Sequence record: KX377933
Reading direction: 5' to 3' (one strand)
Length of the DNA stretch: 64,000 nt
Source: Escherichia phage vB_EcoM_Alf5
Both the position numbers and the translations under genes were made by a program. Below are positions 6,221-48,179 of this stretch, piece by piece (positions within the stretch are counted from its first letter, which is position 1; every line of letters begins with the position of its first letter). The notes under the pieces were generated by a model that saw nothing but the letters and a program-made list of their open reading frames with translations, did no database searches and was not told the DNA's origin.

Positions 6221-6241
6221 TTCTATTTGCGGAGGCGCTTA

Positions 6242-7843: not shown

Positions 7844-7859
7844 TAGCTAGGTGAGAAGA

Positions 7860-9326: not shown

Positions 9327-9826
9327 TGGCTGAAGTTATCTCTATTTCAAATGCTACACGAGTGCATTCGTATAGAGGTGTTCTTATTATCACTGACAAA
9401 TTATCTGTAGAGGCTGGCTCAAGGGTCAGCCTTTCAGGTTATGTAAGTGATGGTGGAGCCTCTGACGTTTTCACTATTTGCAGGTTACTTGATGCTCCAA
9501 TGAGTGGAAAACCGTTTATTTCAGGAAATTGTAGTGAAATTGTTAAAATTCCATTTGACAGTTCATGCCTTTTGGGTGTAAAGTTATATAACTGCGAGAA
9601 TAAACGTATCAATGTTAATAGCATTGAAGCCGCTTTCATTACCCTCGACACTGCATTTCAATCTCCAATGACAGTTAATAAAGAAACAAACAGACTTGAG
9701 TACATTTTTTCACAAAATGATTACAAAGTACTTGTCAAAGGTAAAGTATATGATATGATTGTAAATGTGGTAGATGAATCTGGTAACCATTCAACAGTCC
9801 TTAAACAAAAAGTAAGGTTTAATTAA
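9326..9826 (+). CDS. hypothetical head-module protein
   Basis: 166 aa ORF between portal and protease; no family recognised. Confidence 0.4.
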   Translation: MAEVISISNATRVHSYRGVLIITDKLSVEAGSRVSLSGYVSDGGASDVFTICRLLDAPMSGKPFISGNCSEIVKIPFDSSCLLGVKLYNCENKRINVNSIEAAFITLDTAFQSPMTVNKETNRLEYIFSQNDYKVLVKGKVYDMIVNVVDESGNHSTVLKQKVRFN

Positions 9827-10158
9827 TGGGAACATTAACTATTGATGGTAAGAATAAAATCCTCGCCACGCTAACCCCAACGACTATTATTTTACACAAT
9901 GTAGACCCAACGGCAGACCCTACAGCAAATAAGGTTACTCAGCCAGTGGCTATTTATTTTTCTGAACCGGATAATGGCTTAATTGCCTCAGAAGACACAG
10001 TTAATATTACTGTTCCAGCTTCTGCAACGGTCTCACACTATAGCTTGTGGGATGCTAACGATAAATGCGTGGCAACTGGTGCTCTTAGCAAACCTCAATT
10101 CTTTGCTGAAGAAGGTATCTATGTTATCTCTTCAGTCTCTGTAGATTTAAACAAATAG
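9826..10158 (+). CDS. hypothetical head-module protein
   Basis: 110 aa ORF, start abuts the upstream stop. Confidence 0.4.
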   Translation: MGTLTIDGKNKILATLTPTTIILHNVDPTADPTANKVTQPVAIYFSEPDNGLIASEDTVNITVPASATVSHYSLWDANDKCVATGALSKPQFFAEEGIYVISSVSVDLNK

Positions 10159-17502: not shown

Positions 17503-25503
<8,001 letters not shown>

Positions 25504-25505
25504 TA

Positions 25506-26654
25506 ATGGCAGTAGGTGAAATTCAAATTAGTGCCTTGCCTCAAGCAGCCTTACCAATTGACCTTAGTGATATCTTCCATCTTAAACAGGGTATCGAGGA
25601 TAAGAGATGTACTCTTGAGCAATTACTTGCTCCACACTCAAGCCTAAGAAATAACCCACATGGTGTTACTAAGACACAAATTGGTTTAGATAACGTTATT
25701 AATGCTCTCCAGTTAGTTGCTGAAAATAACTTATCAGATATTGTTAATGTAGCTGAGGCAAGAGCAAATCTACAGATTATGTCTTCAGAAGAGGTTAATA
25801 ATCTTATTCAACAGCATATTGATGATAAGAGCAACCCACACAATACTACTAAGGCACAGGTTGGGTTAAGCAATGTTCAGAACTGGGTGACATCTAACCT
25901 TTATAATGAGGATGCAGATAAGTATGCTACAGCAAGAGCAGTAAATAACTTGTACAAGGCTGTTCAGGCTTCTTATCCAGTAGGTACTATCCATCTCTCT
26001 ATGAATCCTGCAAACCCTTCTACATATTTAATTTGTGGAGGTACTTGGGAGTTAGTTTCAAAAGGAAGAGCACTTGTAGGTTATGATAGTGCTTCTAGGC
26101 CAGTTGGTTCAACGTTTGGTTCGCAGACTACTGCACTGACAGTTAACAACATTCCTGCACATACTCACTCAGTATACGTCACTGGTGGTGGTCACACACA
26201 CGGTGCAACGGCCTCTATCAGTGCTTTTGACTACGGTACTAAAGGGACTACAACGTTTGACTATGGAACAAAGACTGTATCTACTTATGACTATGGTAAC
26301 AGAACAACCAGTGCTGCTGGTTTAACACAAACAACATTCATTAATCGTGGTTATGCTGATGGTGGTTGGAGAGGTTTATCAGTTGAGGGGGCAAGCTATG
26401 ACCCAAGAGCTACGCTGACAACAGCTAACAACCACACTCACTCTGTAGCAATTGGTGCGCATAATCACACAGTGGGGATTGGTGCTCACAGCCATTCTGT
26501 TGCAATTGGTTCCCACAACCACTCAGCAACAGTAACAGTAACCGGAGCAGGTGAGCATTCGCACTCTGGCACAACTGGCACAACTGGTTCTGGTCAAGCG
26601 TTTAGCGTTGAACAGCCATCCTTCGTATTGTATGTATGGCAGAGAACAGCTTAA
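25506..26654 (+). CDS. tail fibre protein with His-rich C-terminal tip
   Basis: C-terminus has repeated HxH motifs ([37 protein letters not shown]) and ends ...GSGQAFSVEQPSFVLYVWQRTA. Confidence 0.6.
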   Translation: MAVGEIQISALPQAALPIDLSDIFHLKQGIEDKRCTLEQLLAPHSSLRNNPHGVTKTQIGLDNVINALQLVAENNLSDIVNVAEARANLQIMSSEEVNNLIQQHIDDKSNPHNTTKAQVGLSNVQNWVTSNLYNEDADKYATARAVNNLYKAVQASYPVGTIHLSMNPANPSTYLICGGTWELVSKGRALVGYDSASRPVGSTFGSQTTALTVNNIPAHTHSVYVTGGGHTHGATASISAFDYGTKGTTTFDYGTKTVSTYDYGNRTTSAAGLTQTTFINRGYADGGWRGLSVEGASYDPRATLTTANNHTHSVAIGAHNHTVGIGAHSHSVAIGSHNHSATVTVTGAGEHSHSGTTGTTGSGQAFSVEQPSFVLYVWQRTA

Positions 26655-26664
26655 TTTCTTTACA

Positions 26665-26686
26665 GGGGCTGTATAGCCCCTTTTAA
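26665..26686 (+). terminator. intrinsic terminator
   Basis: GGGGCT-GTAT-AGCCCC hairpin followed by TTTT. Confidence 0.6.
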
Positions 26687-26700
26687 GAGGAAAATTTATA

Positions 26701-29034
26701 ATGGCAGATTACAAGTTGAGTGAATTAAACTCAATTGATACAATTCGTTCAGACGACCTCCTTCATGTCAGGGTTAAAAAGAGACCTGAAATGCTGGGTG
26801 ATGAAGACCGTCGAATGACCTATCAAGACTTCTTAGCGTCTTTTAAACTAGAAAGATTTGTTCAGATTGCTGGTAGCACTATGACGGGTGACTTAGGGAT
26901 TGTTAAGTTACTTTATGGTGGTAAGGCAGTCTTTGACCCTACAGGCTCTTCTGAGATTACTATGGGGGATGTTTTAAAGACTTTTAAAATTAATGCAAAT
27001 GGTCTTAAACTAACTATTGCAGATGCTTCAAGGTCTGCAACTGTTTATCATACTCTTAATAAGCCAAGCCCTAATGAACTTGGGATGAGAACTAATGCTG
27101 AGAATGATGCTAGATATGCTAGATTAGAAGTACTAAATACTTTTAAGTCTAGGCAGACAATTGTAGCAGATGGTCAAGCACTGTTGTTAAGAAGTGCAAC
27201 TGATAGCCCTTCTCTCTATGTTAGAGGTCAAGACCCATCTGGAACTAATAAATGGTATGTTGGATTTAATACTTCAAATGTTCTTGGATTATCAAATGAA
27301 GCCTCTGGCACGACATTGACATTGGATTCAGCAGGTATTAATTCTAATAAGAATTTAAATATCACTGGTCAGGTTAAACCTTCAGACTGGTCTAACCTAG
27401 ATGATAGATACTTTACCCAAACATTGGCTAATCAAAGATTTGCACAGTTGGCTGGTAATAACACTTTTAACGGCACTAATACATTCAACCAACTGAGTGT
27501 TTTCAAAAAAGATGGTGAAGCAATTAGGCTACAGAATGCCAATGCTGCACAACCATTGTACATTAAAGCAATTGATAGCACAGGTGTCAACAGATGGTAC
27601 ATTGGTAATAGTAACGAAGGTGATAACGTAGCTCTAGAAAACTACAAAACTAGTGGCAAGATTACTGTAGGGACAAGTGTTAATATCAATAAAACACTAA
27701 CTGTAACTGGTCAAGTTCAACCTTCAGATTGGACTAACATTGACTCTAGATATATTCCGGCAGCAACATTAAGCACTCTTGCAAAAATTAATGCTAAGAA
27801 TACTTTTTCTCAAGGTCAGATTATTAAGGCTGATGGAGAGGGTATTAGGCTTCAAGGGGTAAATGATACTGGTGGTTTGTTCTTGCAAGGTTATACTTCT
27901 GATGGTGCTAAAAAGTGGTTTATGGGTACTAATGCTTCAGGAAACTTTACTATCAGGGAGATGGTGTTAGGTACTGAACTGTCTCTTAGAGAGAACTATA
28001 TCCAGTTTAATAAGAATGTAACAATCACTGGGCAGGTTCAACCATCAGACTGGACTAACCTAGATAAAAGGTACTATACCGGTTCAGCATCAAACGCCAG
28101 ATACATGTATGCAGGAAAAACTGGTGAAGGTGATAATGATGCTGCTATTGCTTGGGATGCTAAGACAGGGCTGTATAATGTCAAGACTGGAGCTACATCA
28201 TCAAATCTTTTACTTCAGTTATATCAGGGGTCTGAGTCATCTACACCGTCTGCGCAGCTAAGATTTAAATGGGCGAATGGTGGTATGTGGTATAGGACAT
28301 CAAGAGATGGTGTTGGCTTTGAGAAAAGTTGGGCTATGGTGTACACAACTGCACAGAAGCCAACCCCTTCAGATATTGGTGCATACACTAAAGCAGAAAC
28401 TGACCAGAAGATTGCACAGGCAGTAAGTGATTCAACAGACCTTAATAAAATCTACCCTGTTGGTATTGTAACGTGGTTTAACAGTAACGTTAACCCTAAT
28501 ACAGCACTGCCTGGTCTAACTTGGACGTACCTTAACAATGGTGTAGGTAGAACAATCAGGATTGCAGCAGCTAACGGTTCAGATGTTGCTACAACTGGTG
28601 GTTCAGATTCTGTAACGTTATCTGTTGGTAACTTACCTTCACACACACACAGTTTTTCTGCTACTACTTCGTCTTTTGACTACGGAACAAAAAACACTAA
28701 CACGACTGGTGCTCACACACACTCTGTAAGTGGTTCTACTTCATCTGCTGGTAACCACAGCCACTCTATTTCGTGGATTGGTCAGAACTCACAGCACTAT
28801 TCCGGTGGTGGTGGTGGTTACATTGGTACAGGGCCGGGTTACACCGATGCTAACGGTGCTCACACCCACTCTGTAAGTGGTACTGCCGCTTCTGCTGGTA
28901 ACCATGCTCACAGTGTTGGTATTGGTGCTCACAGTCATACAGTTAGTGGTAACACTGGTGGTACAGGTTCTGGTTCAGCATTTAGTGTTACTAACCAGTT
29001 CTATAAGTTAATGGCTTGGGTGAGGACTGCTTAA
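26701..29034 (+). CDS. tail fibre protein with tandem repeats and His-rich tip
   Basis: 777 aa; three ~110-aa tandem repeats each ending [IV]TGQV[KQ]PSDW[ST]N[LI]D.RY; C-terminal HxH repeats and tail ...[22 protein letters not shown], paralogous to 25506-26654. Confidence 0.65.
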
Positions 29035-29041
29035 TCCCTTA

Positions 29042-29070
29042 TTGACTGATTGTTAAGATGGTGTTAATAT
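29042..29070 (+). promoter_or_regulatory. sigma70-like promoter (TTGACT-17-TAATAT)
   Basis: TTGACT 29042-29047, 17-nt spacer, TAATAT 29065-29070, upstream of the ORF at 29114. Confidence 0.5.
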
Positions 29071-29113
29071 TCTTTATAAGTATTCTCACCATCTTGGCTG
29101 ATGAGGTGATTAA

Positions 29114-29308
29114 ATGCCTACAATCCTAGCAATTCTCCTAAAAAATCTAGGTAGTTTCTTCTGGAAACTCATTTTATCTCTTCTAAGTGAATACATGATT
29201 GAGAAAGTGTTCTTTAAGCTTGCAAGATACCTTGCGGGTAAGACAGACACGCCTATTGATGATGAATTCGTAGATAACTTAGAAAAAGCTTTTAAGGGGG
29301 AGAAATAA
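29114..29308 (+). CDS. small hydrophobic protein (holin-like candidate)
   Basis: 64 aa; hydrophobic N-terminus ILAILLKNLGSFFWKLILSLL; follows promoter at 29042. Confidence 0.35.
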   Translation: MPTILAILLKNLGSFFWKLILSLLSEYMIEKVFFKLARYLAGKTDTPIDDEFVDNLEKAFKGEK

Positions 29309-29680
29309 ATGAAGTGGATAGAGGAAGCTTTTAAAAATAATATTGGTGCAATTGTTGTTGGTATTTTTAGTGTTATTGGGATGTATACCACGAAGCAAGT
29401 TTCAAGTGGTAAGCAAGAGGTGTCTGTCACAACAAAATTACAGCAGCTAGATAATTATAGCAAATCTAATTACTCAGCTATTCGTGATTTACAGTCTGAC
29501 ATAAGACTTATTCAGTTAGGGATGGAGAACCAGAAAGTTCAGTTAGAGAATGTTAAGGGTGAGAATGCAAAACTTACCAAAACTCTTGATAAATTCTCTG
29601 ACAGTGTGAATAATCTGGCTCAATCAGTATCAGCCCTCCAAGCTATTACTGAAAAGAACACAAAGAATACTGAAAAATAA
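29309..29680 (+). CDS. membrane-anchored coiled-coil protein
   Basis: 123 aa; N-terminal helix IGAIVVGIFSVIGMY then heptad-like Q/L/N-rich region. Confidence 0.4.
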   Translation: MKWIEEAFKNNIGAIVVGIFSVIGMYTTKQVSSGKQEVSVTTKLQQLDNYSKSNYSAIRDLQSDIRLIQLGMENQKVQLENVKGENAKLTKTLDKFSDSVNNLAQSVSALQAITEKNTKNTEK

Positions 29681-29682
29681 AA

Positions 29683-29722
29683 TTTAAGGCTCCTTTTTAC
29701 GGGAGCCTTTTTTTTTTTTTTG
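29683..29722. terminator. bidirectional intrinsic terminator between convergent genes
   Basis: GGCTCC-TTTTTAC-GGGAGCC hairpin flanked by a 14-nt T-run; lies between plus-strand stop 29680 and minus-strand stop 29725. Confidence 0.7.
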
Positions 29723-29724
29723 TT

Positions 29725-30624
29725 TTACTTACCTACTGACAGAGGTGCTTCAATCTTTCCTGCATGTTGGTAGTTGCTAATACCACCAATAAAATCACTT
29801 GCGGTAAGGTGTTTTAGGTCACTTATCGTGTTAAGCTGCACACCAATCTCAAAAGTAGGCGCATGGAACTCTTTATTGTTCATCAGTTCATAAACCTGCT
29901 TCATATGGTTCTGATAAATCTGAGTATCCCCAAAGACACCTATCAAGTACCGTGGAGTATATCCAGTCATCTTGCAAAGTACTTCCAGAATAAAACCATA
30001 AGATGCAATGTTAAATGGAAGACCTAAAAAGGTGTCTACAGAACGTTGATACCATTGTAAGTCAACTTCACCCTCGTTAGTGATATAAATCTGAAACAGA
30101 ACATGACAAGGTGCTAAAGCCATCGAGTTGGCTGCAATATCTGCTGCATTCCAAGCATTAACAAGCATGTAACGGTCTGTGATATCACCTTTCATCTTCG
30201 TTACTAAGGTCTCTAACTGGTCTACAACACAACCGTTATGACCTTCAAAGTTTCTCCACTGAACCCCGTAGATTCTACCACCTGCATCTTCTAACCAGTC
30301 TTGTTCAGAAGAATAGTTAGAGCTTAACCAACGTTTAAAATCATCTGACCAGATAGTCCAGCGTTCCCCATCATTTTCACCCCAAGTACGGTAGCGGAGT
30401 TCACCAAGTTTATTCTCACCATTCAGGAACCATAAAGCCTCCCCAATGACTTGCCGCGTAAACACCTGTTTAGATGTTAAGAGTGGGAAACCAGTTCTCA
30501 TATCAAAACGAAATTGTGGTGGAGCAAATGCAGAGATAACATCTCCAGTTCGTGTAGTACGCAGTTCACCAACTGATAAAACATGGTTCAGGATATTTTT
30601 GTAGCTTGTATCTGCTTGTGACAT
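29725..30624 (-). CDS. thyA: thymidylate synthase
   Basis: 299 aa with the conserved active-site stretch MALAPCHVLFQIYI. Confidence 0.85.
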   Translation of the reverse strand: MSQADTSYKNILNHVLSVGELRTTRTGDVISAFAPPQFRFDMRTGFPLLTSKQVFTRQVIGEALWFLNGENKLGELRYRTWGENDGERWTIWSDDFKRWLSSNYSSEQDWLEDAGGRIYGVQWRNFEGHNGCVVDQLETLVTKMKGDITDRYMLVNAWNAADIAANSMALAPCHVLFQIYITNEGEVDLQWYQRSVDTFLGLPFNIASYGFILEVLCKMTGYTPRYLIGVFGDTQIYQNHMKQVYELMNNKEFHAPTFEIGVQLNTISDLKHLTASDFIGGISNYQHAGKIEAPLSVGK

Positions 30625-30625
30625 A

Positions 30626-31171
30626 TTAAAAGTGCCCTTTTACTTGTGGAACATAGATTTCAAAAGTTGCTTTACCATCCTCTGATGGTTTTGACTGTAC
30701 CTTTGTAAACACACGGTTATCATACAGCTTCTCAAAGAAGTTTTCAAAAGGTAAATGCACAGTGGCCTCTTCAGTAACTTTATGGAAAACAGTATGGAAC
30801 ACCACACTAGCATACGGTAAAGCATTGACAAGGATACCTGCACCACCAATTACAAAGACATCTTCATCAATAGAGCTATCAAGATACTTCAAAAATGCTC
30901 CAAATGACTCTTTACTGGCTTTAGCATACATTACATCATCTTTGCCAAAGTCTATGCCTAAGTATGGTACAGAATTTGTTAAGATGAGGTTTGCACGTTC
31001 TGGTAAAGGTTTACTACCCAGAGTCTTAAAAGTCTTATTACCCATGACTACTAAGTTATTTTTAGTGAGTCTCTTAAACTCTTGCATGTCCTGTTTATGT
31101 CGAGGCCACGGCATACCAGTCGGTGTACCAAATTCACCGTTTTCACCACTTGCAAATATTAGTTTAATCAT
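30626..31171 (-). CDS. frd: dihydrofolate reductase
   Basis: 181 aa; N-terminus MIKLIFA...GMPW..., VVMGNKTF motif; adjacent to thyA. Confidence 0.8.
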   Translation of the reverse strand: MIKLIFASGENGEFGTPTGMPWPRHKQDMQEFKRLTKNNLVVMGNKTFKTLGSKPLPERANLILTNSVPYLGIDFGKDDVMYAKASKESFGAFLKYLDSSIDEDVFVIGGAGILVNALPYASVVFHTVFHKVTEEATVHLPFENFFEKLYDNRVFTKVQSKPSEDGKATFEIYVPQVKGHF

Positions 31172-31428
31172 TTTGTAAACCCTTTCTTAATGAACCAGTT
31201 GATGACACTCTTCACAAATTTACTACGATGGTAGATAAAATGTGGAGAGGGTTGGTATGAACCATAAGCCCAGAAAGCGATAATTTCATTACACCCTGTG
31301 CATCGGGTACTTTCTTCAGCAATATGACCGTTGACTATTTCACTTACCTCACCTTGTAAGTCTGTACACCCACAATGTGGACATCGGATAGGTGTTCCAT
31401 CAGACTCATAGCAGTGTTCAATTTTCAT
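31168..31428 (-). CDS. small zinc-ribbon protein
   Basis: 86 aa with CPHCGC...CTGC Cys pairs. Confidence 0.45.
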   Translation of the reverse strand: MKIEHCYESDGTPIRCPHCGCTDLQGEVSEIVNGHIAEESTRCTGCNEIIAFWAYGSYQPSPHFIYHRSKFVKSVINWFIKKGFTK

Positions 31429-31944
31429 TTATTTAACCTCAAAAACTGGCTCAAGAACCAATATAAAGTCTACACAGTCATCTTCTTCATCCAGAATACC
31501 ATCAAAGTTCTTAGGAACGAAGTCGAAGAGGCTCATAACAAAGCAGTCAGAAGTGACCTTGATAGTTCCTCCCATGTTCTCTACAGTCAACACTGTACGA
31601 CTTTCTTTTACCTCCCTCAGAAGATTACCCACAAAGTCGTCTAAGAAGTACTTCATCAGTGACTTGAAACCTTTAGGGTAATCTGTACCAGAGTATGTTT
31701 CAATCTGAGGAACAAGCTTAACATTTATACTAGTCTTTGTTAAGAACGTTTTAGAGAACATACTATCAGGTAACTTACAAACAGTCTTTCCAGTACCTTC
31801 ATGCTCAATCTCAACAAAACCAGCTTCGTCGCCACATGTAACTATTTTAAAAGATGCTTCATTCTCATACTGTGAAGCCATAAACTTTTTAAGCATCTCT
31901 TTAAGGAAGTCTGCATGAGCATCTTGTAAGAAGATATCAATCAT
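31429..31944 (-). CDS. hypothetical protein
   Basis: 171 aa ORF tightly packed in the minus-strand operon. Confidence 0.45.
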   Translation of the reverse strand: MIDIFLQDAHADFLKEMLKKFMASQYENEASFKIVTCGDEAGFVEIEHEGTGKTVCKLPDSMFSKTFLTKTSINVKLVPQIETYSGTDYPKGFKSLMKYFLDDFVGNLLREVKESRTVLTVENMGGTIKVTSDCFVMSLFDFVPKNFDGILDEEDDCVDFILVLEPVFEVK

Positions 31945-31957
31945 AGTTAATCACCTA

Positions 31958-32317
31958 TTATGGGAACAAACACTTAATGTCATCGTTTTTGAAAACAAAA
32001 CTTGTGTAATTATGACCATCAACATCCAGCCAAACAGCCTGAACATCTACACCATCAAGATTTTGGTAAAGCTCTTTGATGAAGTGGTCTTTTACAATCT
32101 GACTGCTAGTTGTTTCCAACTTAATGTTCGAGATTGCTGAACCTACAGCCATATAGCCCATGACACGTTTCTTCTCAGTATGCTTAATCTTACCATCTTT
32201 GTAAGCCATAATGAGATTGGAAAGAATCTTTACACCGTAATACTTTTCAAGGTGAGTAGGTACACCATAAAAGCCTAATGCGAAGTTTTCAGAGTGGATA
32301 ATGTTTTCACGTTTCAT
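31958..32317 (-). CDS. hypothetical protein
   Basis: 119 aa ORF in the same operon. Confidence 0.45.
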   Translation of the reverse strand: MKRENIIHSENFALGFYGVPTHLEKYYGVKILSNLIMAYKDGKIKHTEKKRVMGYMAVGSAISNIKLETTSSQIVKDHFIKELYQNLDGVDVQAVWLDVDGHNYTSFVFKNDDIKCLFP

Positions 32318-32318
32318 A

Positions 32319-32648
32319 CTAGTCTGCCAACCTTAAATTGAAATTAACACCAAATTTTTCACATACTTCCAACATATACTCAAGGGAAACATTACCAGTG
32401 AGGTGGATTATGTTGGATACACGAGCCTGAGAGATACCACAAATTTTAGCAACTTGCTCTTGAGAAAGACCTCTTGATTTAATCTCTCTCTTAAAACGAT
32501 GTGCAACGAAGTCTCTCATTTCATCTACATCCATTGGACAAATATAACTCTCCATTTCAGCCTCTCTATCAGCCTCCCAATCATCTTGTGGGGCATAAGG
32601 GTCAAAAACCTCATTCATCTTTCTTCTTCCGTTTGCGTGAAGTGTCAA
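32319..32648 (-). CDS. helix-turn-helix DNA-binding protein (XRE-like)
   Basis: C-terminal HTH-like stretch LSQEQVAKICGISQARVSNI; acidic N-terminus. Confidence 0.5.
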   Translation of the reverse strand: MTLHANGRRKMNEVFDPYAPQDDWEADREAEMESYICPMDVDEMRDFVAHRFKREIKSRGLSQEQVAKICGISQARVSNIIHLTGNVSLEYMLEVCEKFGVNFNLRLAD

Positions 32649-32823
32649 TCAATGAATCTATGTTTGTAGCCCTAACCTTTTCACGTTCATCATTAAGATA
32701 ATCGTCAAGAGCCTTTTCAATCTGTGAATCATCTTGACAGATGACTGTAAAGACTGTAAAGCCGTCTGTATCGTCAATTATCTTACCATAACCGCTTCTG
32801 GGATGTAACTTTTTAAGAGCCAT
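32611..32823 (-). CDS. hypothetical small protein
   Basis: 70 aa ORF overlapping the downstream gene start. Confidence 0.35.
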   Translation of the reverse strand: MALKKLHPRSGYGKIIDDTDGFTVFTVICQDDSQIEKALDDYLNDEREKVRATNIDSLIDTSRKRKKKDE

Positions 32824-32824
32824 A

Positions 32825-33208
32825 TTAGATACCTGTGCAGCTTCTGTTTTCTAAGAAATACTCAACACCATACATAGCTTTTTGCATCAAATCTTCTTTA
32901 AACTGGATACGATGGTTGAGCATAGCCTGTACATCAATATCATCATGGTGCTTCTCTTTAATATTTGCAGATTGCAGGAAATACTCTGCAAGAACGCGAT
33001 ACTGGTAGTCAGTTACCTTATCAGTCATCTCTGTCAAAGACTCTTCAGAGATTGGTTTAAGTAGCTCACCATTAGCTAGAGCAACACCTTTTACAATCTG
33101 GCAAGTATCCTCTGGAACACCTGATAAGTCCACATTTGGAAGTTCTGTTGCATTGACTGGTAAATTCATTGCCATAACCATTGCAGCAGCTAATAAAATC
33201 TTTTTCAT
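32825..33208 (-). CDS. secreted/periplasmic protein (signal peptide)
   Basis: N-terminus MKKILLAAAMVMAMNLPVNA looks like a cleavable signal peptide. Confidence 0.5.
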   Translation of the reverse strand: MKKILLAAAMVMAMNLPVNATELPNVDLSGVPEDTCQIVKGVALANGELLKPISEESLTEMTDKVTDYQYRVLAEYFLQSANIKEKHHDDIDVQAMLNHRIQFKEDLMQKAMYGVEYFLENRSCTGI

Positions 33209-33299
33209 AATGACCTCAAAGTTATATTAAATTTTGTATTACATTGAGTATAAAAATAAGCTATAACACCTGACTTGTCAACAGATTTTATAGCTTATT

Positions 33300-33600
33300 T
33301 GGCAGATTTTTTATAAGGCTACTGCCATCCTTCCATACCTTACCTTACCACACCTAACCATACCTAACCAAACTACACCATACAATACCTTGTTAAAAGA
33401 CCCTCTTAAAGACCTTTTAAAAAGGTAAGTCTCATTTTAATGTAGCTGAGACTAACTACCCGCACCTTACATCGCCATACCCAACCAAACCCAACCAGAC
33501 CGCACCTTACAGCGCCTAACCTTACCTGACCGAACCATACCTTATTAAAAGACCCTCTTAAAGACCTTTTAAAAAGGAGCCTCCGAAGAGGCTGCCTAGT
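33300..33600. repeat. composite repeat element, copy set 1
   Basis: Two G-free C-rich blocks with CC-heptamers every ~10 bp (33323-33393, 33462-33543), each followed by the 33-mer TTAAAAGACCCTCTTAAAGACCTTTTAAAAAGG (33393-33425, 33545-33577); hairpin AGTCTC/GAGACT at 33425-33461. Confidence 0.7.
33577..33600 (-). terminator. intrinsic terminator (minus strand)
   Basis: On the minus strand GCCTC-TTCG-GAGGC hairpin followed by a T-run, just after the stop of gene 33605-34045. Confidence 0.55.
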
Positions 33601-38106: not shown

Positions 38107-40777
38107 CCTTACCTGTGCCAGTTACAAGCGTCTCACTCTTCAAACCTAAATTCTTAGATGCCTGACCATACATCCAGTCAGTTATGGCTTTAACTTCTTG
38201 AGTCATACTTTCTGGGCACTCCCAACTGTTTTCATCGTGGTATGCCAGCAAAAGCCTAGCACCAATTGCTGGTTTTCGTCCATTTAATTTTGTCAACCCT
38301 TCTTCACATGCTCTTCTACAAGCAAGGTTAATTGCCTCATTTTGAATCTGAGCCTCTGAACCCATCAAAAGATAGTTCAATAATTTGTGTGGAGATTTAC
38401 ACCACAACCAAGCTCCTGCAACCTTTACAAAACCTCCTTTAGAGATTGCAGCAGTCTTACCAAACACCTCTTCAAGTGCCTTTTTAGTTGCTTTGTAGTC
38501 AGCTTCCAAGTCATCTAGCAGCTTCTTAATTTTAGGCAAACGAATAAAGTAAGTCTGTTTAGTCAGTGCTCCTTCCTGAGTAGTTGCAGCTTTAATCGTC
38601 TTAGCAAACTTCTCATCACCTGCACCGAACAGCAGTGCATAGATACCATTCTTAGCTTTCTTACGACCTTTGCTAATCTCATGAAGAAGATTCTCATCCT
38701 GAGTAGCTCGACAAGTCAAGATATCCTGCTCATCATTCAAGCTAAAGTAAATACTGTTCAGTGTATGTGCATCAGTCCCTGAATAGACAACGTACAGGTC
38801 ATTCTCAGAGTCATAGCGAAGGTACTTATCAATTTCTGGGTTGAGATACTCATCAAAATGTTTGCAGTAATAGCGTCCATCTTCTTGACGAATGAACTCA
38901 ATCTCTTCTTTACCTTGCGTTACCGCTTTGGTGAAGTCTTTGTCACCCATAAAGTTACAAAGAAGAACTAGCTGGGCTGAGTTCATGTCTACAGAGACAA
39001 CGTTAGTCCCTTCCTCACAAATCCACACTGCCCTCATTGGTTCCCCATAGACAGCAGCACCAGACGGTACGTTTACAATACCATATTGTGTCATACGTCC
39101 AGTTGAAGTACCAAACACCATTGCACCAGCACTAAGGCGACCATCAGGACGAATCTGGTTCAACCAACCTTTTTCATCATCTTTTGAGTTCTCAATAGTT
39201 CTGCGTCGGTGCATTAAAGTATAGTACTTAGCAATCTTCTGTCCAAGCTCACCTTCAATCGTATCATAAGATGATTCAGTAAGTTTTGGTGAAGTACGGA
39301 TTAAGCAAGGCTCAAGCAAATCTGTGTACTTCTTCACAGACCAGTTATGCTCAATGTACTGTACACCTTCGTGCTCAACATAGCTCAAACCACACCGCTC
39401 AACCATTTCCTGCCACTTAGGATGTTTTGTAATCATCTTTTTATTGTCTTTGAAACGACAAACTTTGACAGGGCGACCGTCTGAGTCTTTCTTGTAGTTC
39501 CAGTCATCTGGAATCCAACCAACTGATTTCAAGTAGTCTTTAACAACTGCTACCTGAGTCATACGAGAAACTTCAAACTCAATTGGTGTATATGGTGCAT
39601 CAATCAAACCTGTGTAGCGACTTGACTCAAGTTCAAAGTGGTTAACAACGTGGCTGTTATAGTACTTCACAGTTTTGACTGTTTTTACTGGCTTCCAGTC
39701 TTTGCATTTCTTACCAATCTTTGCATTCAACTCATTGCAAATTGCACGAGCATCCTTCATTGCTACAAAACCTTCCTTGTACTCTTCACCAGTTACAGAG
39801 TTGGTTGGTGTATAGCAATTCCTTTTTTCAATGTTAAAAATCTTTGTAGTTGGCTTACCAAATGGTTTGATTTCATAAGTCTGCATCTCACCATTACGTA
39901 CCTGCTGACGGTACTTTGTCTTAGGGTACTTGGTAATTCTCTTCAGTCCATCTGCATGACCAAATGTTTCAACATACTCATTCCAAGCCCTTGCAAACTC
40001 TTCTCCAGTGACTTTACCTTTGGTCTTAATAGTTGGAGGAAGATGTGGTTCAACCTCTGAAGCAAGCTCATTAGTCAACTTGTCAAGTTCCTTTACATGG
40101 AACTCCATAAGCTCTTTATCAGCTTTCCAACCATTGATAGCTTGCTGGCTCATCCAGAAAGATGTCTCTTTAGCTCGCATGTAAGTCTCATAAGTGTCTA
40201 TACCACACTTCTTAAGCTTGAGATACTCGTTATCAAGTGCCCGTTTAGTTTTGGCATTAATACGGATATCTTCTACAACACGAGTGAAGATTTCTGCATT
40301 CCACACACCCCAATGTTCAATCTCTGGTTTACGGACACCAACACGAGCACCCCATGCAGCCAAACCATGAGCACCTTTATAGCCCTTTGGGGTTGGCCTA
40401 TCCATCCACTGAACACGAGACTGGATAAGAGAGTCCTGAAAGAAATTACTCCACGGTTTACACTTTGGATTATCAAAGTTCCATAAATCAGGTGCAATGT
40501 GATTGAAAACCCACCAGTCATAACCGAGACCATTATGGATGCAAAGACGTTTTGCCTTTAACGCAAATTCAACACCTTCACGTAAACCACCTTTGATGTA
40601 CTTAGTGTACTTGTGACCGAGGATAGGCTCATCTGTAAAGACCCATACAGGTGGCTCTTCATCGTCAGATTTATAGTCTGCAAAGGCCATTACGTGAACT
40701 TTAGTGAACTCAAGGAGTAAACCATCAGTTTCTGTATCACCAACCAAATGTAAGTTTTTAAAATCTACGTTTTCCAT
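38078..40777 (-). CDS. DNA polymerase, family A (T7 gp5-like) with 3'-5' exonuclease domain
   Basis: Exo I DTETDGL, motif C-like YHDE; blocks recalled as matching T7 gp5 (ALLFGAGDEKFAK vs GFLYGAGDEKIG); start moved to the second ATG (40777) with GAGGGAG RBS. Confidence 0.85.
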   Translation of the reverse strand: MENVDFKNLHLVGDTETDGLLLEFTKVHVMAFADYKSDDEEPPVWVFTDEPILGHKYTKYIKGGLREGVEFALKAKRLCIHNGLGYDWWVFNHIAPDLWNFDNPKCKPWSNFFQDSLIQSRVQWMDRPTPKGYKGAHGLAAWGARVGVRKPEIEHWGVWNAEIFTRVVEDIRINAKTKRALDNEYLKLKKCGIDTYETYMRAKETSFWMSQQAINGWKADKELMEFHVKELDKLTNELASEVEPHLPPTIKTKGKVTGEEFARAWNEYVETFGHADGLKRITKYPKTKYRQQVRNGEMQTYEIKPFGKPTTKIFNIEKRNCYTPTNSVTGEEYKEGFVAMKDARAICNELNAKIGKKCKDWKPVKTVKTVKYYNSHVVNHFELESSRYTGLIDAPYTPIEFEVSRMTQVAVVKDYLKSVGWIPDDWNYKKDSDGRPVKVCRFKDNKKMITKHPKWQEMVERCGLSYVEHEGVQYIEHNWSVKKYTDLLEPCLIRTSPKLTESSYDTIEGELGQKIAKYYTLMHRRRTIENSKDDEKGWLNQIRPDGRLSAGAMVFGTSTGRMTQYGIVNVPSGAAVYGEPMRAVWICEEGTNVVSVDMNSAQLVLLCNFMGDKDFTKAVTQGKEEIEFIRQEDGRYYCKHFDEYLNPEIDKYLRYDSENDLYVVYSGTDAHTLNSIYFSLNDEQDILTCRATQDENLLHEISKGRKKAKNGIYALLFGAGDEKFAKTIKAATTQEGALTKQTYFIRLPKIKKLLDDLEADYKATKKALEEVFGKTAAISKGGFVKVAGAWLWCKSPHKLLNYLLMGSEAQIQNEAINLACRRACEEGLTKLNGRKPAIGARLLLAYHDENSWECPESMTQEVKAITDWMYGQASKNLGLKSETLVTGTGKVGKSWLEVH

Positions 40778-40837
40778 TTTTACTCCCTCTAAAATCATTA
40801 ACCTCATACATTACTGCAAAAAATTATAAAAAGCAAG

Positions 40838-40866
40838 TTGACAATGTACTTGACAAGGTGTTAATC
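40838..40866 (+). promoter_or_regulatory. candidate sigma70-like promoter in divergent control region
   Basis: TTGACA 40838-40843, 17-nt spacer, TTAATC 40861-40866 (weak -10); second overlapping TTGACA at 40850. Confidence 0.3.
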
Positions 40867-41034
40867 TTTGCGAAGTGGGTTTTTACTTAAAAGGTTACTT
40901 AACAGTTTAACTATACAGATACTTTAAAACTCTTAAAAGATTATTTAATAGCTTTTAAAAAGCTTTAAAGTATAACGTATAGAATACGTTAAGATAAAAG
41001 ATTAAAACTTAATAGTTACTTAAAAGAGGCTTAC

Positions 41035-41457
41035 ATGCAGAAAATGTTTGTTCACCCAGACATAGCTGACTTTGTTAGAGCTTTGCAGAAGTTGGAAGAA
41101 CTTGACATTGCTGCTCAACGGGAATATGCTCACCATCACAGGAGAATGGTTGATATACAACATGAAATAGAGTTATCTGAAAACTATGAAGATGACTTAA
41201 AATGCTCTGTGTTTGAGCATATGAAAGATGTTGCTACAGCGAGACGTAAAGCTAAAGACACAGTTGCTTTACTAGATTCTCTTAAAAAGAGGTTGCAAAG
41301 TGGTACAGACCTGTGTAATCTAGCGTCACTGATTAACGATGTTGAAACTTCTTGGGATAGGCACTACTATCCACGTTCTGAAAAGACACTTGACTTTTCT
41401 TCATCCGAAAACTTAAAATGTTCTAGAAAGAAGCTTAACCAACTGAGAGAGAAATAA
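41035..41457 (+). CDS. hypothetical protein
   Basis: 140 aa ORF, first gene of the plus-strand block. Confidence 0.45.
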   Translation: MQKMFVHPDIADFVRALQKLEELDIAAQREYAHHHRRMVDIQHEIELSENYEDDLKCSVFEHMKDVATARRKAKDTVALLDSLKKRLQSGTDLCNLASLINDVETSWDRHYYPRSEKTLDFSSSENLKCSRKKLNQLREK

Positions 41458-41458
41458 T

Positions 41459-42259
41459 ATGAATATCGATGTAGAAAAGATGCTTGAAGAAAAAGGTATT
41501 GACGAAGCATTTTTAATCAATGCCGTAGAAAGCATGGCTATGATTCTTCGTGGGAACAACTACACAGAACAGTTTATGCCTGCAAGCTATAATCTGCCTG
41601 AAGACAAGTCTGATAACGGTGCTTTTGCAGAACAGGTTAACATGATGTTGACAGACACTACACTTGCTCTGGCATCTATTGCGGTTGGTGTTGATGCACT
41701 TGCTGAGTTCATTTTTTATGAAATGCAAAAGAATGACTATATCAGGATGTCAGACGAAGATAAGGAACTGTTGCTGACTAAGGACACTGATTTCATTATT
41801 GATACGCTTATCTCATCAACAAGTGCTGTTATGGCTGCTCTTGAGAAGCGTATGGAAGAGAAACTTTCACGATATGAAAAACTTGATTGGGGTGTAGAAG
41901 AACTAAACCAACGAATCAAGGAGATTATCCAGCAAACTAAAGAGTCTTTGGAAGAAGCTGTTGAAAATGACTCTGTAGCTGATATAGAACCACTTCAGGT
42001 GAAAGTTGCACTGATGATTCCAGCTATCTCTACGATGATGAATATCGTTGCACTAATCCAACTTTCACAGATGATGGGTATGAGTATTGAGTTCATTGAG
42101 GAGATGACTGGTGGTGTCAGTCTGCAAGCAATCAATGATGTTTTGGTGAACATTGGTGCTTCAATCATTGAAGAGAAACTACGCATTAACTTTGGTGATG
42201 ATTTTGTGAAGCAAATCTCAGCTATGGCTGAAAAAGAGTCTGCTGAGCAACTGCACTAA
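41459..42259 (+). CDS. hypothetical acidic protein
   Basis: 266 aa, Glu/Asp-rich; followed by terminator. Confidence 0.45.
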   Translation: MNIDVEKMLEEKGIDEAFLINAVESMAMILRGNNYTEQFMPASYNLPEDKSDNGAFAEQVNMMLTDTTLALASIAVGVDALAEFIFYEMQKNDYIRMSDEDKELLLTKDTDFIIDTLISSTSAVMAALEKRMEEKLSRYEKLDWGVEELNQRIKEIIQQTKESLEEAVENDSVADIEPLQVKVALMIPAISTMMNIVALIQLSQMMGMSIEFIEEMTGGVSLQAINDVLVNIGASIIEEKLRINFGDDFVKQISAMAEKESAEQLH

Positions 42260-42275
42260 ATCTTTATAAATCTTA

Positions 42276-42301
42276 AAAGCCTCCTTAGTTGGGGGCTTTT
42301 T
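42276..42301 (+). terminator. intrinsic terminator
   Basis: GCCTCC-TTAGTT-GGGGGC hairpin followed by TTTT. Confidence 0.6.
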
Positions 42302-42320
42302 AGTAATTAAGGGAGATAAA

Positions 42321-43064
42321 ATGAGTAATATTATCGCATTTACTGGAAAGGCACGTTCTGGAAAAGACACCTCATGTTCTATTGTGAAGAACATCTTAGA
42401 GGATGAGTACGGCTACAATGTTGCTGTAATGGCCTTTGCAGACAACCTTAAACTGTCTGCATCAAAGATATTTGACCTGACTTGGAATGACCTGTATGGT
42501 GAAACTAAAGAGACTCCACAGGTATTTGACTTATCATATCCTGAACTGATGTTTAAAGTTACGGAAGCTATGGAGTTCACCTTCAGAGATGAACGTTACC
42601 ATATGGACTTCAAGCTTATGTCAGAGTTAACCGGACGATTAATCATGGAGCTTAAGAAGGTTGCTAAACCGACTCTATTGACACGTCTGGGGTTTAGCAA
42701 AAAGTATAAATTCTCATCAAGACAAATTCAACAGGTTTGGGGCACTGAAGTTGTCCGTAAAGTAATGGGCGACAAGTTCTGGTCTAAAGACCTTGAAAAA
42801 AGAATGGTTAGATTCCATGAAATGTGCTCACTTAGAAATCAATATGGTTTTGTATTAATCAGTGATTTAAGATTTGACTCTGAAGCTGAATGGCTGAGTA
42901 GATTTGCACACCAAACTATTGAAGTAAAAAGAGACAATGTGGACAAAGTTTCATCACATGTTTCAGAAAATGGGATTTCTACAAAATATGAGCGTGACAT
43001 TATTCATAATAATGGTACTCTTGCAGACCTTGAGAACAAGCTAAGAGCCATCATTAAAGTTTAA
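42321..43064 (+). CDS. deoxynucleoside monophosphate kinase (T4 gp1-like)
   Basis: N-terminal P-loop IIAFTGKARSGKDT, matching the T4 gp1 start as recalled. Confidence 0.55.
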   Translation: MSNIIAFTGKARSGKDTSCSIVKNILEDEYGYNVAVMAFADNLKLSASKIFDLTWNDLYGETKETPQVFDLSYPELMFKVTEAMEFTFRDERYHMDFKLMSELTGRLIMELKKVAKPTLLTRLGFSKKYKFSSRQIQQVWGTEVVRKVMGDKFWSKDLEKRMVRFHEMCSLRNQYGFVLISDLRFDSEAEWLSRFAHQTIEVKRDNVDKVSSHVSENGISTKYERDIIHNNGTLADLENKLRAIIKV

Positions 43065-43072
43065 AAGAGAGA

Positions 43073-43273
43073 ATGAAGATGAGAGTAAAAGACAATTTTA
43101 AAGTTATTGACCACCGTTTAGTGGAACTCTCATCTCTTTCCAATGAGGTAATGATTGAACGTCTTAAGAGAGTTGAATCACGAAGGAAAGAGATTGCAGA
43201 TGAAATTCATGAACTGGACAAGATTGAAAATGGATTGAAGGCAGAACTACAACGAAGAGGTGCTAATGTCTAA
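43073..43273 (+). CDS. hypothetical small coiled-coil protein
   Basis: 66 aa ORF overlapping the primase-helicase start. Confidence 0.4.
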   Translation: MKMRVKDNFKVIDHRLVELSSLSNEVMIERLKRVESRRKEIADEIHELDKIENGLKAELQRRGANV

Positions 43274-46583: not shown

Positions 46584-46600
46584 TCTCTAAAAGTTACTTT

Positions 46601-46630
46601 AAAGCCCTGTACTCAGTATGGGGCTTTTTC
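46601..46630 (+). terminator. candidate intrinsic terminator
   Basis: AAAGCCC...GGGGCTTTTT short hairpin with T-run. Confidence 0.45.
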
Positions 46631-46645
46631 ATATGGAGAGCCATA

Positions 46646-48173: not shown

Positions 48174-48179
48174 TAACTA

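What the first reader, a model, noticed from the sequence alone, without database searches (positions are those of the whole stretch)
25506..29034. Two paralogous tail fibres sharing a His-rich HxH-repeat tip
Both proteins end with arrays of HTHS/HSHS/HNHS repeats followed by ...GSG.AFSV...W.RTA, while their N-terminal parts differ. HxH repeats are the metal-coordinating (Fe or Zn) motif of the T4 gp37/gp12 fibre tips. Two fibres with related tips suggest dual receptor specificity or a long/short fibre pair.
Basis: partly seen in the sequence, partly recalled or inferred. Interest (0 to 1): 0.5.

Follow-up and report, generated by a model that had tools for sequence, protein, structure and literature searches.

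The report
Felix O1-type short and long tail fibres
These are the short and long tail-fibre genes of a Felix O1-like coliphage, both ending in a T4 gp37-style histidine-rich tip; the pair was described by cryo-EM in 2025, so the finding is correct but ordinary.

Summary
ORF-A (25506-26654, 382 aa) and ORF-B (26701-29034, 777 aa) share a C-terminal module of about 230 aa (30% identity, E=4e-14; profile-profile probability 99.8%). It carries 7 and 6 HxH motifs, against 0.14 and 0.29 expected by chance, and both end in ...GSGxAFSV...WxRTA. Both proteins match the solved T4 gp37 tip (2XGF: E=3e-14 and 5e-18; profile 2.7e-30) and the Gp10_C collar domain.

The window is a Felixounavirus. ORF-A is 98.2% identical to Bas63 gp26, the short fibre, and ORF-B is 67% identical to gp27, the long fibre (about 90% in the tip). 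Both were seen on the Bas63 virion by cryo-EM (Sci Adv 2025), with the same 7 and 6 di-His counts.

One refinement: the HxH arrays form the needle shaft, not the tip. The chain runs down, forms a small head and runs back, so the receptor-contacting part lies between the two HxH blocks. That is the least conserved stretch among 15 orthologues. The heads of the two fibres are unrelated, which fits different ligands. Receptors and metal content remain untested.

Verdict: already known; low interest.

The parts
25506..26654 (+). Short tail fibre gene (ORF-A, 382 aa), orthologue of Bas63 gp26 and Sf14 gp52
   Evidence: ORF. It is 98.2% identical to Bas63 gp26 over 382 aa, with HxH at identical positions. 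phrog_2097 tail fiber, E=1e-127. Annotated 'tail fiber protein' in relatives.
25506..25925 (+). Short fibre residues 1-140: N-terminal baseplate-binding region plus helical repeats containing two NPHxxTKxQ(I/V)GLxNV motifs
   Evidence: Conservation is 0.92-0.99 among 15 orthologues. The AF2 model shows helices at 37-46, 68-106 and 139-156. The Bas63 paper reports that this end binds wedge 2A.
25941..26150 (+). Short fibre collar domain (about residues 146-215), Gp10_C / gp37-collar type
   Evidence: Pfam Gp10_C covers 154-260, E=1.6e-17. The alignment to 2XGF starts at residue 146 and to gp10 at 143-221. This is the best-predicted part of the model, pLDDT 83-91.
26151..26285 (+). Short fibre descending needle strand (about residues 216-260): HxH at 219 and 230, then three (F/Y)DYG(T/N)(K/R) repeats
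   Evidence: Aligns to gp37 '[19 protein letters not shown]'.
26286..26432 (+). Short fibre predicted head (about residues 261-309), the distal receptor-contacting part; boundaries are approximate
   Evidence: Conservation minimum of 0.49-0.62 among orthologues. Its position between the two HxH blocks matches the gp37 head (alignment; architecture from PMC12609058). No similarity to the long-fibre head.
26433..26570 (+). Short fibre ascending needle strand (about residues 310-355): HxH at 310, 319, 328, 337 and 351
   Evidence: Aligns to gp37 '[22 protein letters not shown]'.
26571..26651 (+). Short fibre C-terminal segment TTGTTGSGQAFSVEQPSFVLYVWQRTA, returning towards the collar
   Evidence: Conservation 0.90-0.97. 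Model strand 376-380 has pLDDT 84-87. The chain doubles back to the collar according to PMC12609058.
26701..29034 (+). Long tail fibre gene (ORF-B, 777 aa), orthologue of Bas63 gp27 and Sf14 gp53
   Evidence: ORF. phrog_4277 tail fiber, full length, 1312 bits. It is 67% identical to Bas63 gp27 overall and about 90% in the tip.
26701..27081 (+). Long fibre N-terminal region (residues 1-127), the conserved baseplate/platform-binding end
   Evidence: Conservation 0.89-0.96. The Bas63 paper reports that this end attaches to the gp25 platform.
27082..28077 (+). Long fibre shaft: three tandem units of about 110 aa (residues 128-238, 242-352, 349-459), each ending in the conserved linker GQVxPSDWxNxDxRY
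   Evidence: Pfam gp37_trimer x3, E=2.9e-51. An 82-nt DNA repeat occurs at 27336, 27678 and 27999. Unit alignment. The unit bodies are variable (0.46-0.68) and the linkers conserved (0.75-0.91).
28111..28437 (+). Long fibre gp37_C / Mu tail-fibre-S-like domain (residues 471-579)
   Evidence: Pfam PF12604, E=3.2e-16. PDB 8JU3 Mu tail fibre S, E=3.3e-21.
28444..28635 (+). Long fibre collar domain (about residues 582-645)
   Evidence: Pfam Gp10_C covers 582-689 at 23.5 bits, below the gathering score of 27. hhalign to the short-fibre collar is part of the 99.8% match. Conservation 0.91-0.96.
28636..28770 (+). Long fibre descending needle (about residues 646-690): HxH at 648, 672 and 686, with one FDYGTK motif
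   Evidence: 2XGF alignment.
28771..28857 (+). Long fibre predicted head (about residues 691-719: [29 protein letters not shown]); boundaries are approximate
   Evidence: Conservation minimum of 0.49. Flanked by a 50-nt direct repeat of 88% identity encoding GAHTHSVSG(S/T)..SAGN.
28858..28950 (+). Long fibre ascending needle (about residues 720-750): HxH at 721, 735 and 744
28951..29031 (+). Long fibre C-terminal segment ...[25 protein letters not shown]
   Evidence: Conservation 0.94-0.96. Identical in Bas63.
25201..25503 (+). 100-aa long-fibre platform protein (Bas63 gp25, described as T4 gp9-like)
   Evidence: 98% identical to Bas63 gp25. Its role comes from PMC12609058. phrog_4141.
24344..25201 (+). 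Baseplate wedge 1 (285 aa), which carries the platform
   Evidence: 99.3% identical to Bas63 gp24. phrog_4017 baseplate protein.
22872..24341 (+). Baseplate wedge 2 (489 aa, Baseplate_J), attachment site of the short fibre
   Evidence: 100% identical to Bas63 gp23. Pfam Baseplate_J. The short fibre binds D2 of wedge 2A according to PMC12609058.

Best explanation
The two genes encode the two homotrimeric tail fibres of a Felixounavirus (Felix O1-like) myophage. The 382-aa protein is the short fibre, attached to baseplate wedge 2. The 777-aa protein is the long fibre, attached through the 100-aa platform protein to wedge 1.

Both end in the same inherited module, which is homologous to the receptor-binding tip of T4 gp37. 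It has a collar domain and a six-stranded needle. In the needle each chain runs down, forms a small distal head and runs back up, and the C-terminal strand returns to the collar. Each HxH motif of the three chains would point six imidazoles at the trimer axis and hold one metal ion, as Fe2+ does in gp37. That gives about seven rungs in the short fibre and six in the long one, which would rivet the needle into a rigid rod.

Specificity lies in the variable head between the two HxH blocks. The heads of the two fibres are unrelated, so they probably bind different ligands, most likely different parts of the LPS core. By analogy with T4 and the Bas63 reconstructions, both fibres are stowed along the sheath. 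The long fibre would deploy first for reversible binding, and the short fibre would then engage before the baseplate triggers.

Shown here: homology, domain order, motif counts, orthology to the imaged Bas63 proteins, and the location of variability. Inferred: trimer and metal, receptor identity, and order of engagement.
For: Sequence match of both proteins to 2XGF, the T4 gp37 tip (profile E=2.7e-30). Pfam Gp10_C, gp37_trimer, gp37_C and Phage_fiber. PHROG tail-fibre families. The genes are syntenic with Bas63 and 98.2% / 67% identical to the gp26 / gp27 imaged by cryo-EM; HxH positions are identical in the short fibre, and the paper's H692/H693/H695 are reproduced in gp27 (PMC12609058). The same two fibres were seen in Sf14 (PMC11821841), whose proteins are 67% and 52% identical to the window's. 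HxH enrichment is 7 and 6 against 0.14 and 0.29 expected. Among 15 orthologues the conservation minimum falls between the HxH blocks in both proteins, while the collar and C-terminal strand score above 0.9. Across a 63-sequence family alignment, H219, H221, H337 and H339 are invariant and H310 and H312 nearly so. [quoted passage not shown] Octahedral HxH-metal coordination is documented for gp12 (PMC3004832) and stated for gp37 Fe in PMC12609058.
Against: My own structure prediction was a monomer of low confidence (mean pLDDT 63, head 40-45). Its Foldseek search recovered gp10 and other fibre tips but not 2XGF, and TM-scores were low. T4 gp37 needs chaperones gp38 and gp57A, and no fibre chaperone is annotated in the 50 kb of LinBro that was examined, so folding may differ. 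No experiment assigns a receptor to either fibre.
Confidence: 0.9

Rival explanations
1. The two fibres give two independent host or receptor specificities. Each alone would suffice for infection of a different host, as with branched receptor-binding proteins in polyvalent phages, rather than acting in sequence on one host.
For: The head segments are unrelated. The long fibre is exchanged independently of the short one: the short fibre is 100% identical in Barry, dune and LNA1 while their long fibres are 71-77% identical. The Sf14 authors suggest the two fibres may bind different receptors.
Against: The short fibre is highly conserved across phages isolated on different hosts: at least 99% in 25 records, against 3 for the long fibre. 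That fits a common second-step receptor better than an alternative host determinant. In Bas63 the short fibre keeps full occupancy while long-fibre occupancy varies from 0 to 6, and the authors read this as T4-like sequential use. No direct data exist.
Confidence: 0.2
2. ORF-A is not a fibre but a T4 gp10-like baseplate structural protein, as its only above-threshold Pfam hit (Gp10_C) suggests.
For: Pfam Gp10_C E=1.6e-17. Foldseek top hits are T4 gp10 C-terminal domains. PDB gp10 hits at E about 1e-5.
Against: The gp10-like stretch covers only the collar (about residues 143-221). Downstream of it the protein aligns to the gp37 needle and head with a better score (2XGF E=3e-14; profile 2.7e-30). 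The 98%-identical Bas63 gp26 is seen as a 430 A fibre lying along the sheath.
Confidence: 0.02
3. The two genes are alternative fibres of which only one is made at a time, as with the invertible S/S' fibres of phage Mu.
For: ORF-B contains a domain homologous to Mu tail fibre S (8JU3, E=3e-21). The Sf14 paper draws the Mu comparison.
Against: Both genes are on the same strand, 46 nt apart, inside one late operon that ends at the terminator at 29686-29709. The gene order is fixed in all 15 loci examined. Both proteins are present together on Bas63 and Sf14 virions.
Confidence: 0.02
4. The HxH arrays are structural beta-strand repeats that hold no metal in these proteins, or that act as pH sensors instead.
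For: No metal has been observed in any Felixounavirus fibre, because map resolution was insufficient. HxH number varies among orthologues, 7 or 9 and 4 or 6, so no fixed count is required.
Against: The HxH positions align residue for residue with those of gp37. The His residues are the most conserved residues of the needle: H219, H221, H337 and H339 are invariant in 63 sequences. Loss of metal binding would remove the reason for that conservation.
Confidence: 0.08

Closest known systems
Escherichia phage Bas63 (JohannRWettstein, MZ501086) gp26 short tail fibre and gp27 long tail fibre; cryo-EM, Sci Adv 2025, PMC12609058
   Same: Same genus, gene order and sizes. The short fibre is 98.2% identical with identical HxH positions. 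The long-fibre tip is about 90% identical with the same six HxH positions. The wedge and platform proteins are 98-100% identical.
   Different: The long-fibre shaft is strongly diverged: 67% overall, and DNA identity to close relatives falls to 43-77% across 27044-28390. Bas63 has HHxH where the window has NHSH (residue 685/686). The window's long fibre is 7 aa shorter.
Shigella phage Sf14 gp52 / gp53 (Mooglevirus; Commun Biol 2025, PMC11821841)
   Same: Two fibres of 391 and 792 aa in the same gene order, both retracted on the tail. The authors propose different receptors.
   Different: 67% and 52% identity to the window proteins. The Sf14 short fibre has 9 HxH and its long fibre 4. The head sequences differ.
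T4 gp37 receptor-binding tip (PDB 2XGF)
   Same: Collar, HxH needle and head, with the chain doubling back. Seven HxH in gp37 and in the window's short fibre. Shared FDYGTK and [14 protein letters not shown]-type motifs.
   Different: About 32-39% identity. In T4 the tip ends a four-protein, 1026-aa-class distal fibre, whereas here it ends single-protein fibres of 382 and 777 aa. The down/up split of HxH differs: gp37 3/4, short fibre 2/5, long fibre 3/3. The head sequences differ. gp37 needs gp38 and gp57A, and no homologue is annotated here.
T4 gp10 C-terminal domain and T4 gp12 collar (2FKK; gp12 Zn site at His445/His447)
   Same: The collar fold and sequence motif (YP(I/V)G...NP...W) are shared. 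gp12 uses an HxH from three chains to bind a metal on the axis.
   Different: gp10 has no HxH needle. gp12 has a single HxH site, and neither window protein hit it in the PDB sequence search at E<=1. The Bas63 authors note that their short fibre is unlike T4 gp12.
Phage Mu tail fibre S (PDB 8JU3) / Pfam gp37_C PF12604
   Same: Long-fibre residues 471-571 are homologous, E=3e-21.
   Different: This is only one internal domain. Mu fibres need a separate chaperone and are switched by DNA inversion, and neither feature is found here.

Membership tests
Felixounavirus/Ounavirinae short + long tail-fibre pair (Bas63 gp26/gp27 type) | Gene order wedge 2 - wedge 1 - 100-aa platform - short fibre - long fibre at the end of the late structural operon | tested here: met
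   Window ORFs of 489, 285, 100, 382 and 777 aa. Same order in LinBro, Sf14, BPS15S6, AYO145A, mio, SPJ41, HP1, Barry, Bas63 and others.
Felixounavirus/Ounavirinae short + long tail-fibre pair (Bas63 gp26/gp27 type) | Full-length sequence orthology to the proteins imaged on the virion | tested here: met
   98.2% (gp26) and 67% (gp27) over full length. 67% and 52% to the Sf14 proteins.
Felixounavirus/Ounavirinae short + long tail-fibre pair (Bas63 gp26/gp27 type) | Both proteins physically present as fibres on the particle | not testable with these tools
   Shown for Bas63 and Sf14 by cryo-EM, not for this phage.
T4 gp37-type receptor-binding tip (2XGF) | Collar domain homologous to the gp37 / gp12 / gp10 C-terminal collar | tested here: met
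   Pfam Gp10_C: A E=1.6e-17; B 23.5 bits, below the gathering score. The 2XGF alignment includes the collar for A. hhalign A against B gives 99.8% including the collar.
T4 gp37-type receptor-binding tip (2XGF) | Multiple HxH motifs in two blocks (descending and ascending strands) aligned with those of gp37 | tested here: met
   7 and 6 motifs in two blocks, aligned to the gp37 motifs.
T4 gp37-type receptor-binding tip (2XGF) | Chain reverses at a small distal head, which is the variable specificity determinant | tested here: met
   One continuous alignment of A146-352 to 2XGF chain residues 18-229 spans both halves. The conservation minimum lies between the HxH blocks in both proteins. My own 3D model of the head is unreliable (pLDDT 40-45), so the fold itself rests on homology and on PMC12609058.
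T4 gp37-type receptor-binding tip (2XGF) | Intertwined homotrimer with metal ions (Fe2+) coordinated octahedrally by HxH from three chains | not testable with these tools
   Only monomer prediction is available. Fibre density in Bas63 was too weak for side chains.
T4 gp37-type receptor-binding tip (2XGF) | Folding dependent on gp57A and gp38 chaperones | tested here: inconclusive
   No tail-fibre chaperone is annotated in LinBro 1-50000, which covers most of the window. Sf14 lacks Mu-type chaperones. No direct homology search for gp38 or gp57A was run, and 36 kb of the genome was not inspected.
T4 gp12 short tail fibre | Sequence homology to gp12 (beta-helix shaft, collar, single Zn-binding HxH head) | tested here: not met
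   No gp12 chain appears among the PDB hits at E<=1 for either protein. The Bas63 authors state that their short fibre differs from T4's. The name 'short tail fibre' is functional, not a family assignment.
Mu/P2-type tail fibre (gp37_C, PF12604) | gp37_C domain present | tested here: met
   B 481-579, E=3.2e-16. 8JU3, E=3.3e-21. This is a domain-level match only.
Mu/P2-type tail fibre (gp37_C, PF12604) | Adjacent tail-fibre assembly chaperone gene (Tfa/U type) downstream of the fibre gene | tested here: not met
   The downstream ORFs are 64-aa and 123-aa proteins of unknown-function PHROGs, annotated as holin in some relatives. The Sf14 paper reports no Mu chaperone homologues.

The most novel reading that the evidence does not exclude
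The fibre genes may be built for cassette exchange. The long-fibre head is bracketed by a 50-nt direct repeat (88% identity) encoding [13 protein letters not shown]. The shaft units are separated by linkers conserved at DNA level. HxH counts among orthologues take only the values 7 or 9 (short fibre) and 4 or 6 (long fibre). One relative, AYO145A, carries a head almost identical to that of T4 gp37. If these conserved HxH and linker stretches act as recombination sites, heads and shaft units could move between Ounavirinae and Tevenvirinae. Host range of Felix O1-like phages would then be reprogrammable by swapping only the roughly 30-50 residues between the HxH blocks. The unexpectedly variable shaft units might also contact the cell surface.
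Probability: 0.3. Interest if true: 0.35.

Novelty: already known. Interest (0 to 1): 0.12.

Why it matters
These two genes decide which bacteria a Felix O1-type phage can attack, and such phages are used in Salmonella and E. coli diagnostics and biocontrol. Locating the specificity element in the short segment between the HxH blocks tells engineers what to swap. It also explains why the long fibre is mosaic among otherwise near-identical phages. For this window, however, the result only confirms what cryo-EM of Bas63 and Sf14 and the existing database annotation already say. It opens no new question beyond those still open for the genus: which receptor each fibre binds, whether metal is bound, and how the needle folds without gp38 and gp57A.

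Tried and rejected
1. AlphaFold2 monomer model of the short fibre with a 63-sequence alignment. Mean pLDDT was 63, with a good collar and an unusable head. The Foldseek PDB search found gp10, the Pa223 fibre and the Bizionia C24 tip, but with TM about 0.15 and no 2XGF hit. I treat this as weakly supportive only. A second prediction for the long fibre was not run, because a monomer cannot represent an intertwined trimer.

2. Profile-profile test for hidden similarity between the two N-termini. None was found (probability 1%), but the profiles were shallow (Neff about 1.1). The structural similarity of the baseplate-binding domains reported for Bas63 could therefore be neither confirmed nor denied.

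3. Finding the Bas63 accession. The guesses MZ501111, MZ501084 and MZ501085 were other BASEL phages, and MZ501086 was correct. No supplements to the Bas63 paper are held.

4. The original gp37 tip paper (PMC2996694) and the T4 fibre review (PMC5899708) are not held. The Fe coordination in gp37 is therefore cited through PMC12609058, and the gp12 zinc site through PMC3004832.

5. Promoter and terminator scan of 25000-29800. There is no convincing terminator between the two fibre genes in this window, although one is annotated at that position in AYO145A. Promoter-like hits were not above the shuffled expectation.

6. gp10-like baseplate protein and Mu-style alternative fibres were considered and rejected (see rival explanations).
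Full report
**What is there.** The stated interval holds two complete ORFs on the + strand: ORF-A at 25506..26654 (382 aa) and ORF-B at 26701..29034 (777 aa). They follow a Baseplate_J protein (22872..24341, 489 aa), a 285-aa baseplate protein and a 100-aa ORF. Two small ORFs (64 and 123 aa) come after them, then a bidirectional terminator-like hairpin at 29686-29709, then thyA and DHFR on the reverse strand. GC skew changes sign at about 30 kb, which fits the end of a rightward late operon.

- BLASTP aligns A136-382 with B558-777 at 30% identity, E=4e-14.
- Profiles built from 15 orthologues of each protein align A154-382 with B582-777 at 99.8% probability.
- A has seven HxH motifs (first His at 219, 230 | 310, 319, 328, 337, 351). 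B has six (648, 672, 686 | 721, 735, 744).
- At the window's background His frequency, 0.14 and 0.29 motifs are expected, and no other ORF of 100 aa or more has more than one.
- Both proteins end in TGSGxAFSV...WxRTA.
- The N-terminal parts show no detectable similarity, although the profiles were shallow.

**What it is.**
- Pfam gives Gp10_C for A. For B it gives three gp37_trimer repeats, gp37_C, the HxH repeat family PF03335, and a sub-threshold Gp10_C.
- PHROGs places both in tail-fibre families.
- Against PDB sequences, A146-352 matches the T4 gp37 receptor-binding tip 2XGF (E=3.2e-14) and the T4 gp10 C-terminal domain. B642-756 matches 2XGF (E=5.3e-18), and B471-571 matches Mu tail fibre S (E=3.3e-21).
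- A profile of 63 relatives of A raises the 2XGF match to E=2.7e-30. In that alignment H219, H221, H337 and H339 are invariant.

**Whose genes they are.** The DNA is 99.9% identical to Escherichia phage vB_Eco_Tribble and 99.7% to LinBro, both Felixounavirus, and 235 phage records match. Relatives annotate both genes as tail fibre proteins.

Two cryo-EM papers describe the pair. In Bas63, gp26 is a 430 A short fibre bound to wedge 2A. gp27 is a 630 A long fibre bound through the gp25 platform to wedge 1. Both carry a gp37-like collar, HxH needle and head, with seven and six di-His motifs, and both lie retracted along the sheath (PMC12609058). Sf14 shows the same two fibres, and its authors propose different receptors for them (PMC11821841).

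I located Bas63 (MZ501086) and compared it directly:

| Bas63 protein | Identity to window ORF |
|---|---|
| wedge 2 (gp23) | 100% |
| wedge 1 (gp24) | 99.3% |
| platform (gp25) | 98% |
| short fibre (gp26) | 98.2%, HxH at identical positions |
| long fibre (gp27) | 67% overall, about 90% from collar to C-terminus |

The His residues I find in Bas63 gp27 (692, 693, 695) are those quoted in the paper, which confirms the gene assignment.

The His-rich arrays are not the end of the fibre. In the gp37 architecture the chain descends, forms a small head and ascends again, so the receptor-contacting part lies between the two HxH blocks and the C-terminus returns to the collar.

I tested this with 15 Ounavirinae orthologues. 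In both proteins the conservation minimum (0.49) falls between the blocks, at A261-310 and B681-720. The collar, the outermost HxH motifs and the C-terminal strand score 0.9 or higher. The two heads of this phage share no similarity, which fits different ligands.

Bas63 needs an intact LPS core (PMC8594841). A 2026 preprint groups Felixounavirus with clades known to recognise O-polysaccharide or LPS moieties. Which fibre binds what is unknown.

**Mechanism and its status.**
- Shown here: homology to the gp37 tip, domain order, motif counts, orthology to the imaged fibres, and the location of variability.
- Taken from the literature: gp12 coordinates zinc octahedrally through HxH from three chains (PMC3004832), and gp37 di-His motifs coordinate Fe along the needle (PMC12609058).
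- Inferred: these proteins are trimers holding about seven and six metal ions, the long fibre acts first and the short one second, and both target the LPS core.
- Open point: T4 gp37 needs gp38 and gp57A. No fibre chaperone is annotated in the 50 kb of LinBro that overlaps most of this window, and the two downstream ORFs belong to unknown-function PHROGs.

**My own structural test was weak.** The AF2 monomer had mean pLDDT 63, with the collar at 83-91 and the head at 40-45. Foldseek returned only fibre and baseplate proteins at the top (gp10 C-terminal domain at probability 0.99, Pa223 fibre, Bizionia C24), with TM about 0.15. This neither adds to nor detracts from the homology evidence.

**Side observations.**
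- The short fibre is far more conserved than the long one: at least 99% identical in 25 records, against 3.
- Phages with identical short fibres have long fibres that are 71-77% identical.
- The divergence sits in the shaft, where DNA identity falls to 43-77% across 27044-28390, and returns to about 90% in the tip.
- The shaft consists of three units of about 110 aa, with conserved linkers that are also repeated at DNA level.
- HxH counts among orthologues are 7 or 9 in the short fibre and 4 or 6 in the long one.
- The AYO145A long fibre carries a head nearly identical to that of T4 gp37.

**Verdict.** The feature is already described in the literature and in database annotation. Interest is low.

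Noticed in passing
L004 (AYO145A, NC_028825) 5720-8083, long-fibre residues about 660-745: The head and adjacent needle of this Felixounavirus long fibre are almost identical to T4 gp37 ([71 protein letters not shown]), with 55% identity over 200 aa overall. This points to head exchange between Tevenvirinae and Ounavirinae.
   Followed up: partly
loci L001-L016, short- and long-fibre orthologues: The number of HxH motifs takes two values among orthologues: 7 or 9 in the short fibre and 4 or 6 in the long one. The differences lie next to the head. In the window's short-fibre type a third YDYGNR repeat stands where other orthologues have two descending HxH motifs, giving an unusual split of 2 down and 5 up.
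   Followed up: partly
window 27044-28390 (long-fibre shaft): DNA identity to close relatives (heid, dune, Barry, LNA1) drops from 93-100% to 43-77% here and recovers in the tip. This indicates replacement by divergent alleles rather than point mutation. The Bas63 paper calls this shaft variability unexpected.
   Followed up: partly
window 28708-28757 and 28855-28904: A 50-nt direct repeat of 88% identity, encoding [16 protein letters not shown] and [16 protein letters not shown], brackets the long-fibre head. It is a possible substrate for head deletion or exchange.
   Followed up: no
window 27336-27417, 27678-27759, 27999-28080: An 82-nt repeat (71-82% identity) encodes the conserved shaft linker NKN(L/V)x(I/V)TGQVxPSDWxNxDxRY at the end of each of three shaft units of about 110 aa.
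   Followed up: partly
window 21830-22453 (+), 207 aa: The central baseplate spike carries a single HxH (H188, H190...NEHTHHY...). These are the residues the Bas63 paper describes as a likely iron site in the puncturing apparatus.
   Followed up: yes
window 29114-29308 and 29309-29680 (+): Two small ORFs (64 and 123 aa) follow the long fibre, each with a hydrophobic N-terminal stretch in its sequence. They fall in PHROGs of unknown function. Several relatives annotate the second as holin. No fibre chaperone gene is adjacent.
   Followed up: partly
window 29686-29709: A strong terminator-like hairpin reads on both strands (9-bp stem with a T-run on the + strand). It lies between the end of the late operon and the convergent thyA gene.
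   Followed up: no
public records MZ501086, MW296865, LR880803: Annotation is inconsistent. Bas63 gp26, the short fibre, is labelled 'long tail fiber protein'. The short-fibre homologue of Salmonella phage SP3_SHan-2021 is labelled 'capsid and scaffold protein'.
   Followed up: no
L010 (Erwinia phage phiEa104, Kolesnikvirus) 4501-10071: The short-fibre homologue (44.8% identity) is conserved. It is followed by a different set of fibre genes: 'putative proximal tail fiber' (1.5 kb), a 0.7-kb tail fibre protein and a large structural protein. The long fibre therefore appears to be replaced in that genus.
   Followed up: no
L020 (LinBro OR896830) 29852-33373 and 46535-49421: In the near-identical phage LinBro, the DNA polymerase and NrdD genes are each annotated in two pieces, with an endonuclease VII gene and an HNH endonuclease gene respectively between the pieces. 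The corresponding window coordinates were not verified, because the offset to LinBro changes downstream.
   Followed up: no
OX016465 (vB_Eco_Tribble) 39885-43718: The record that is 99.9% identical labels 'E. furg BREX site' features inside the fibre-gene region.
   Followed up: no
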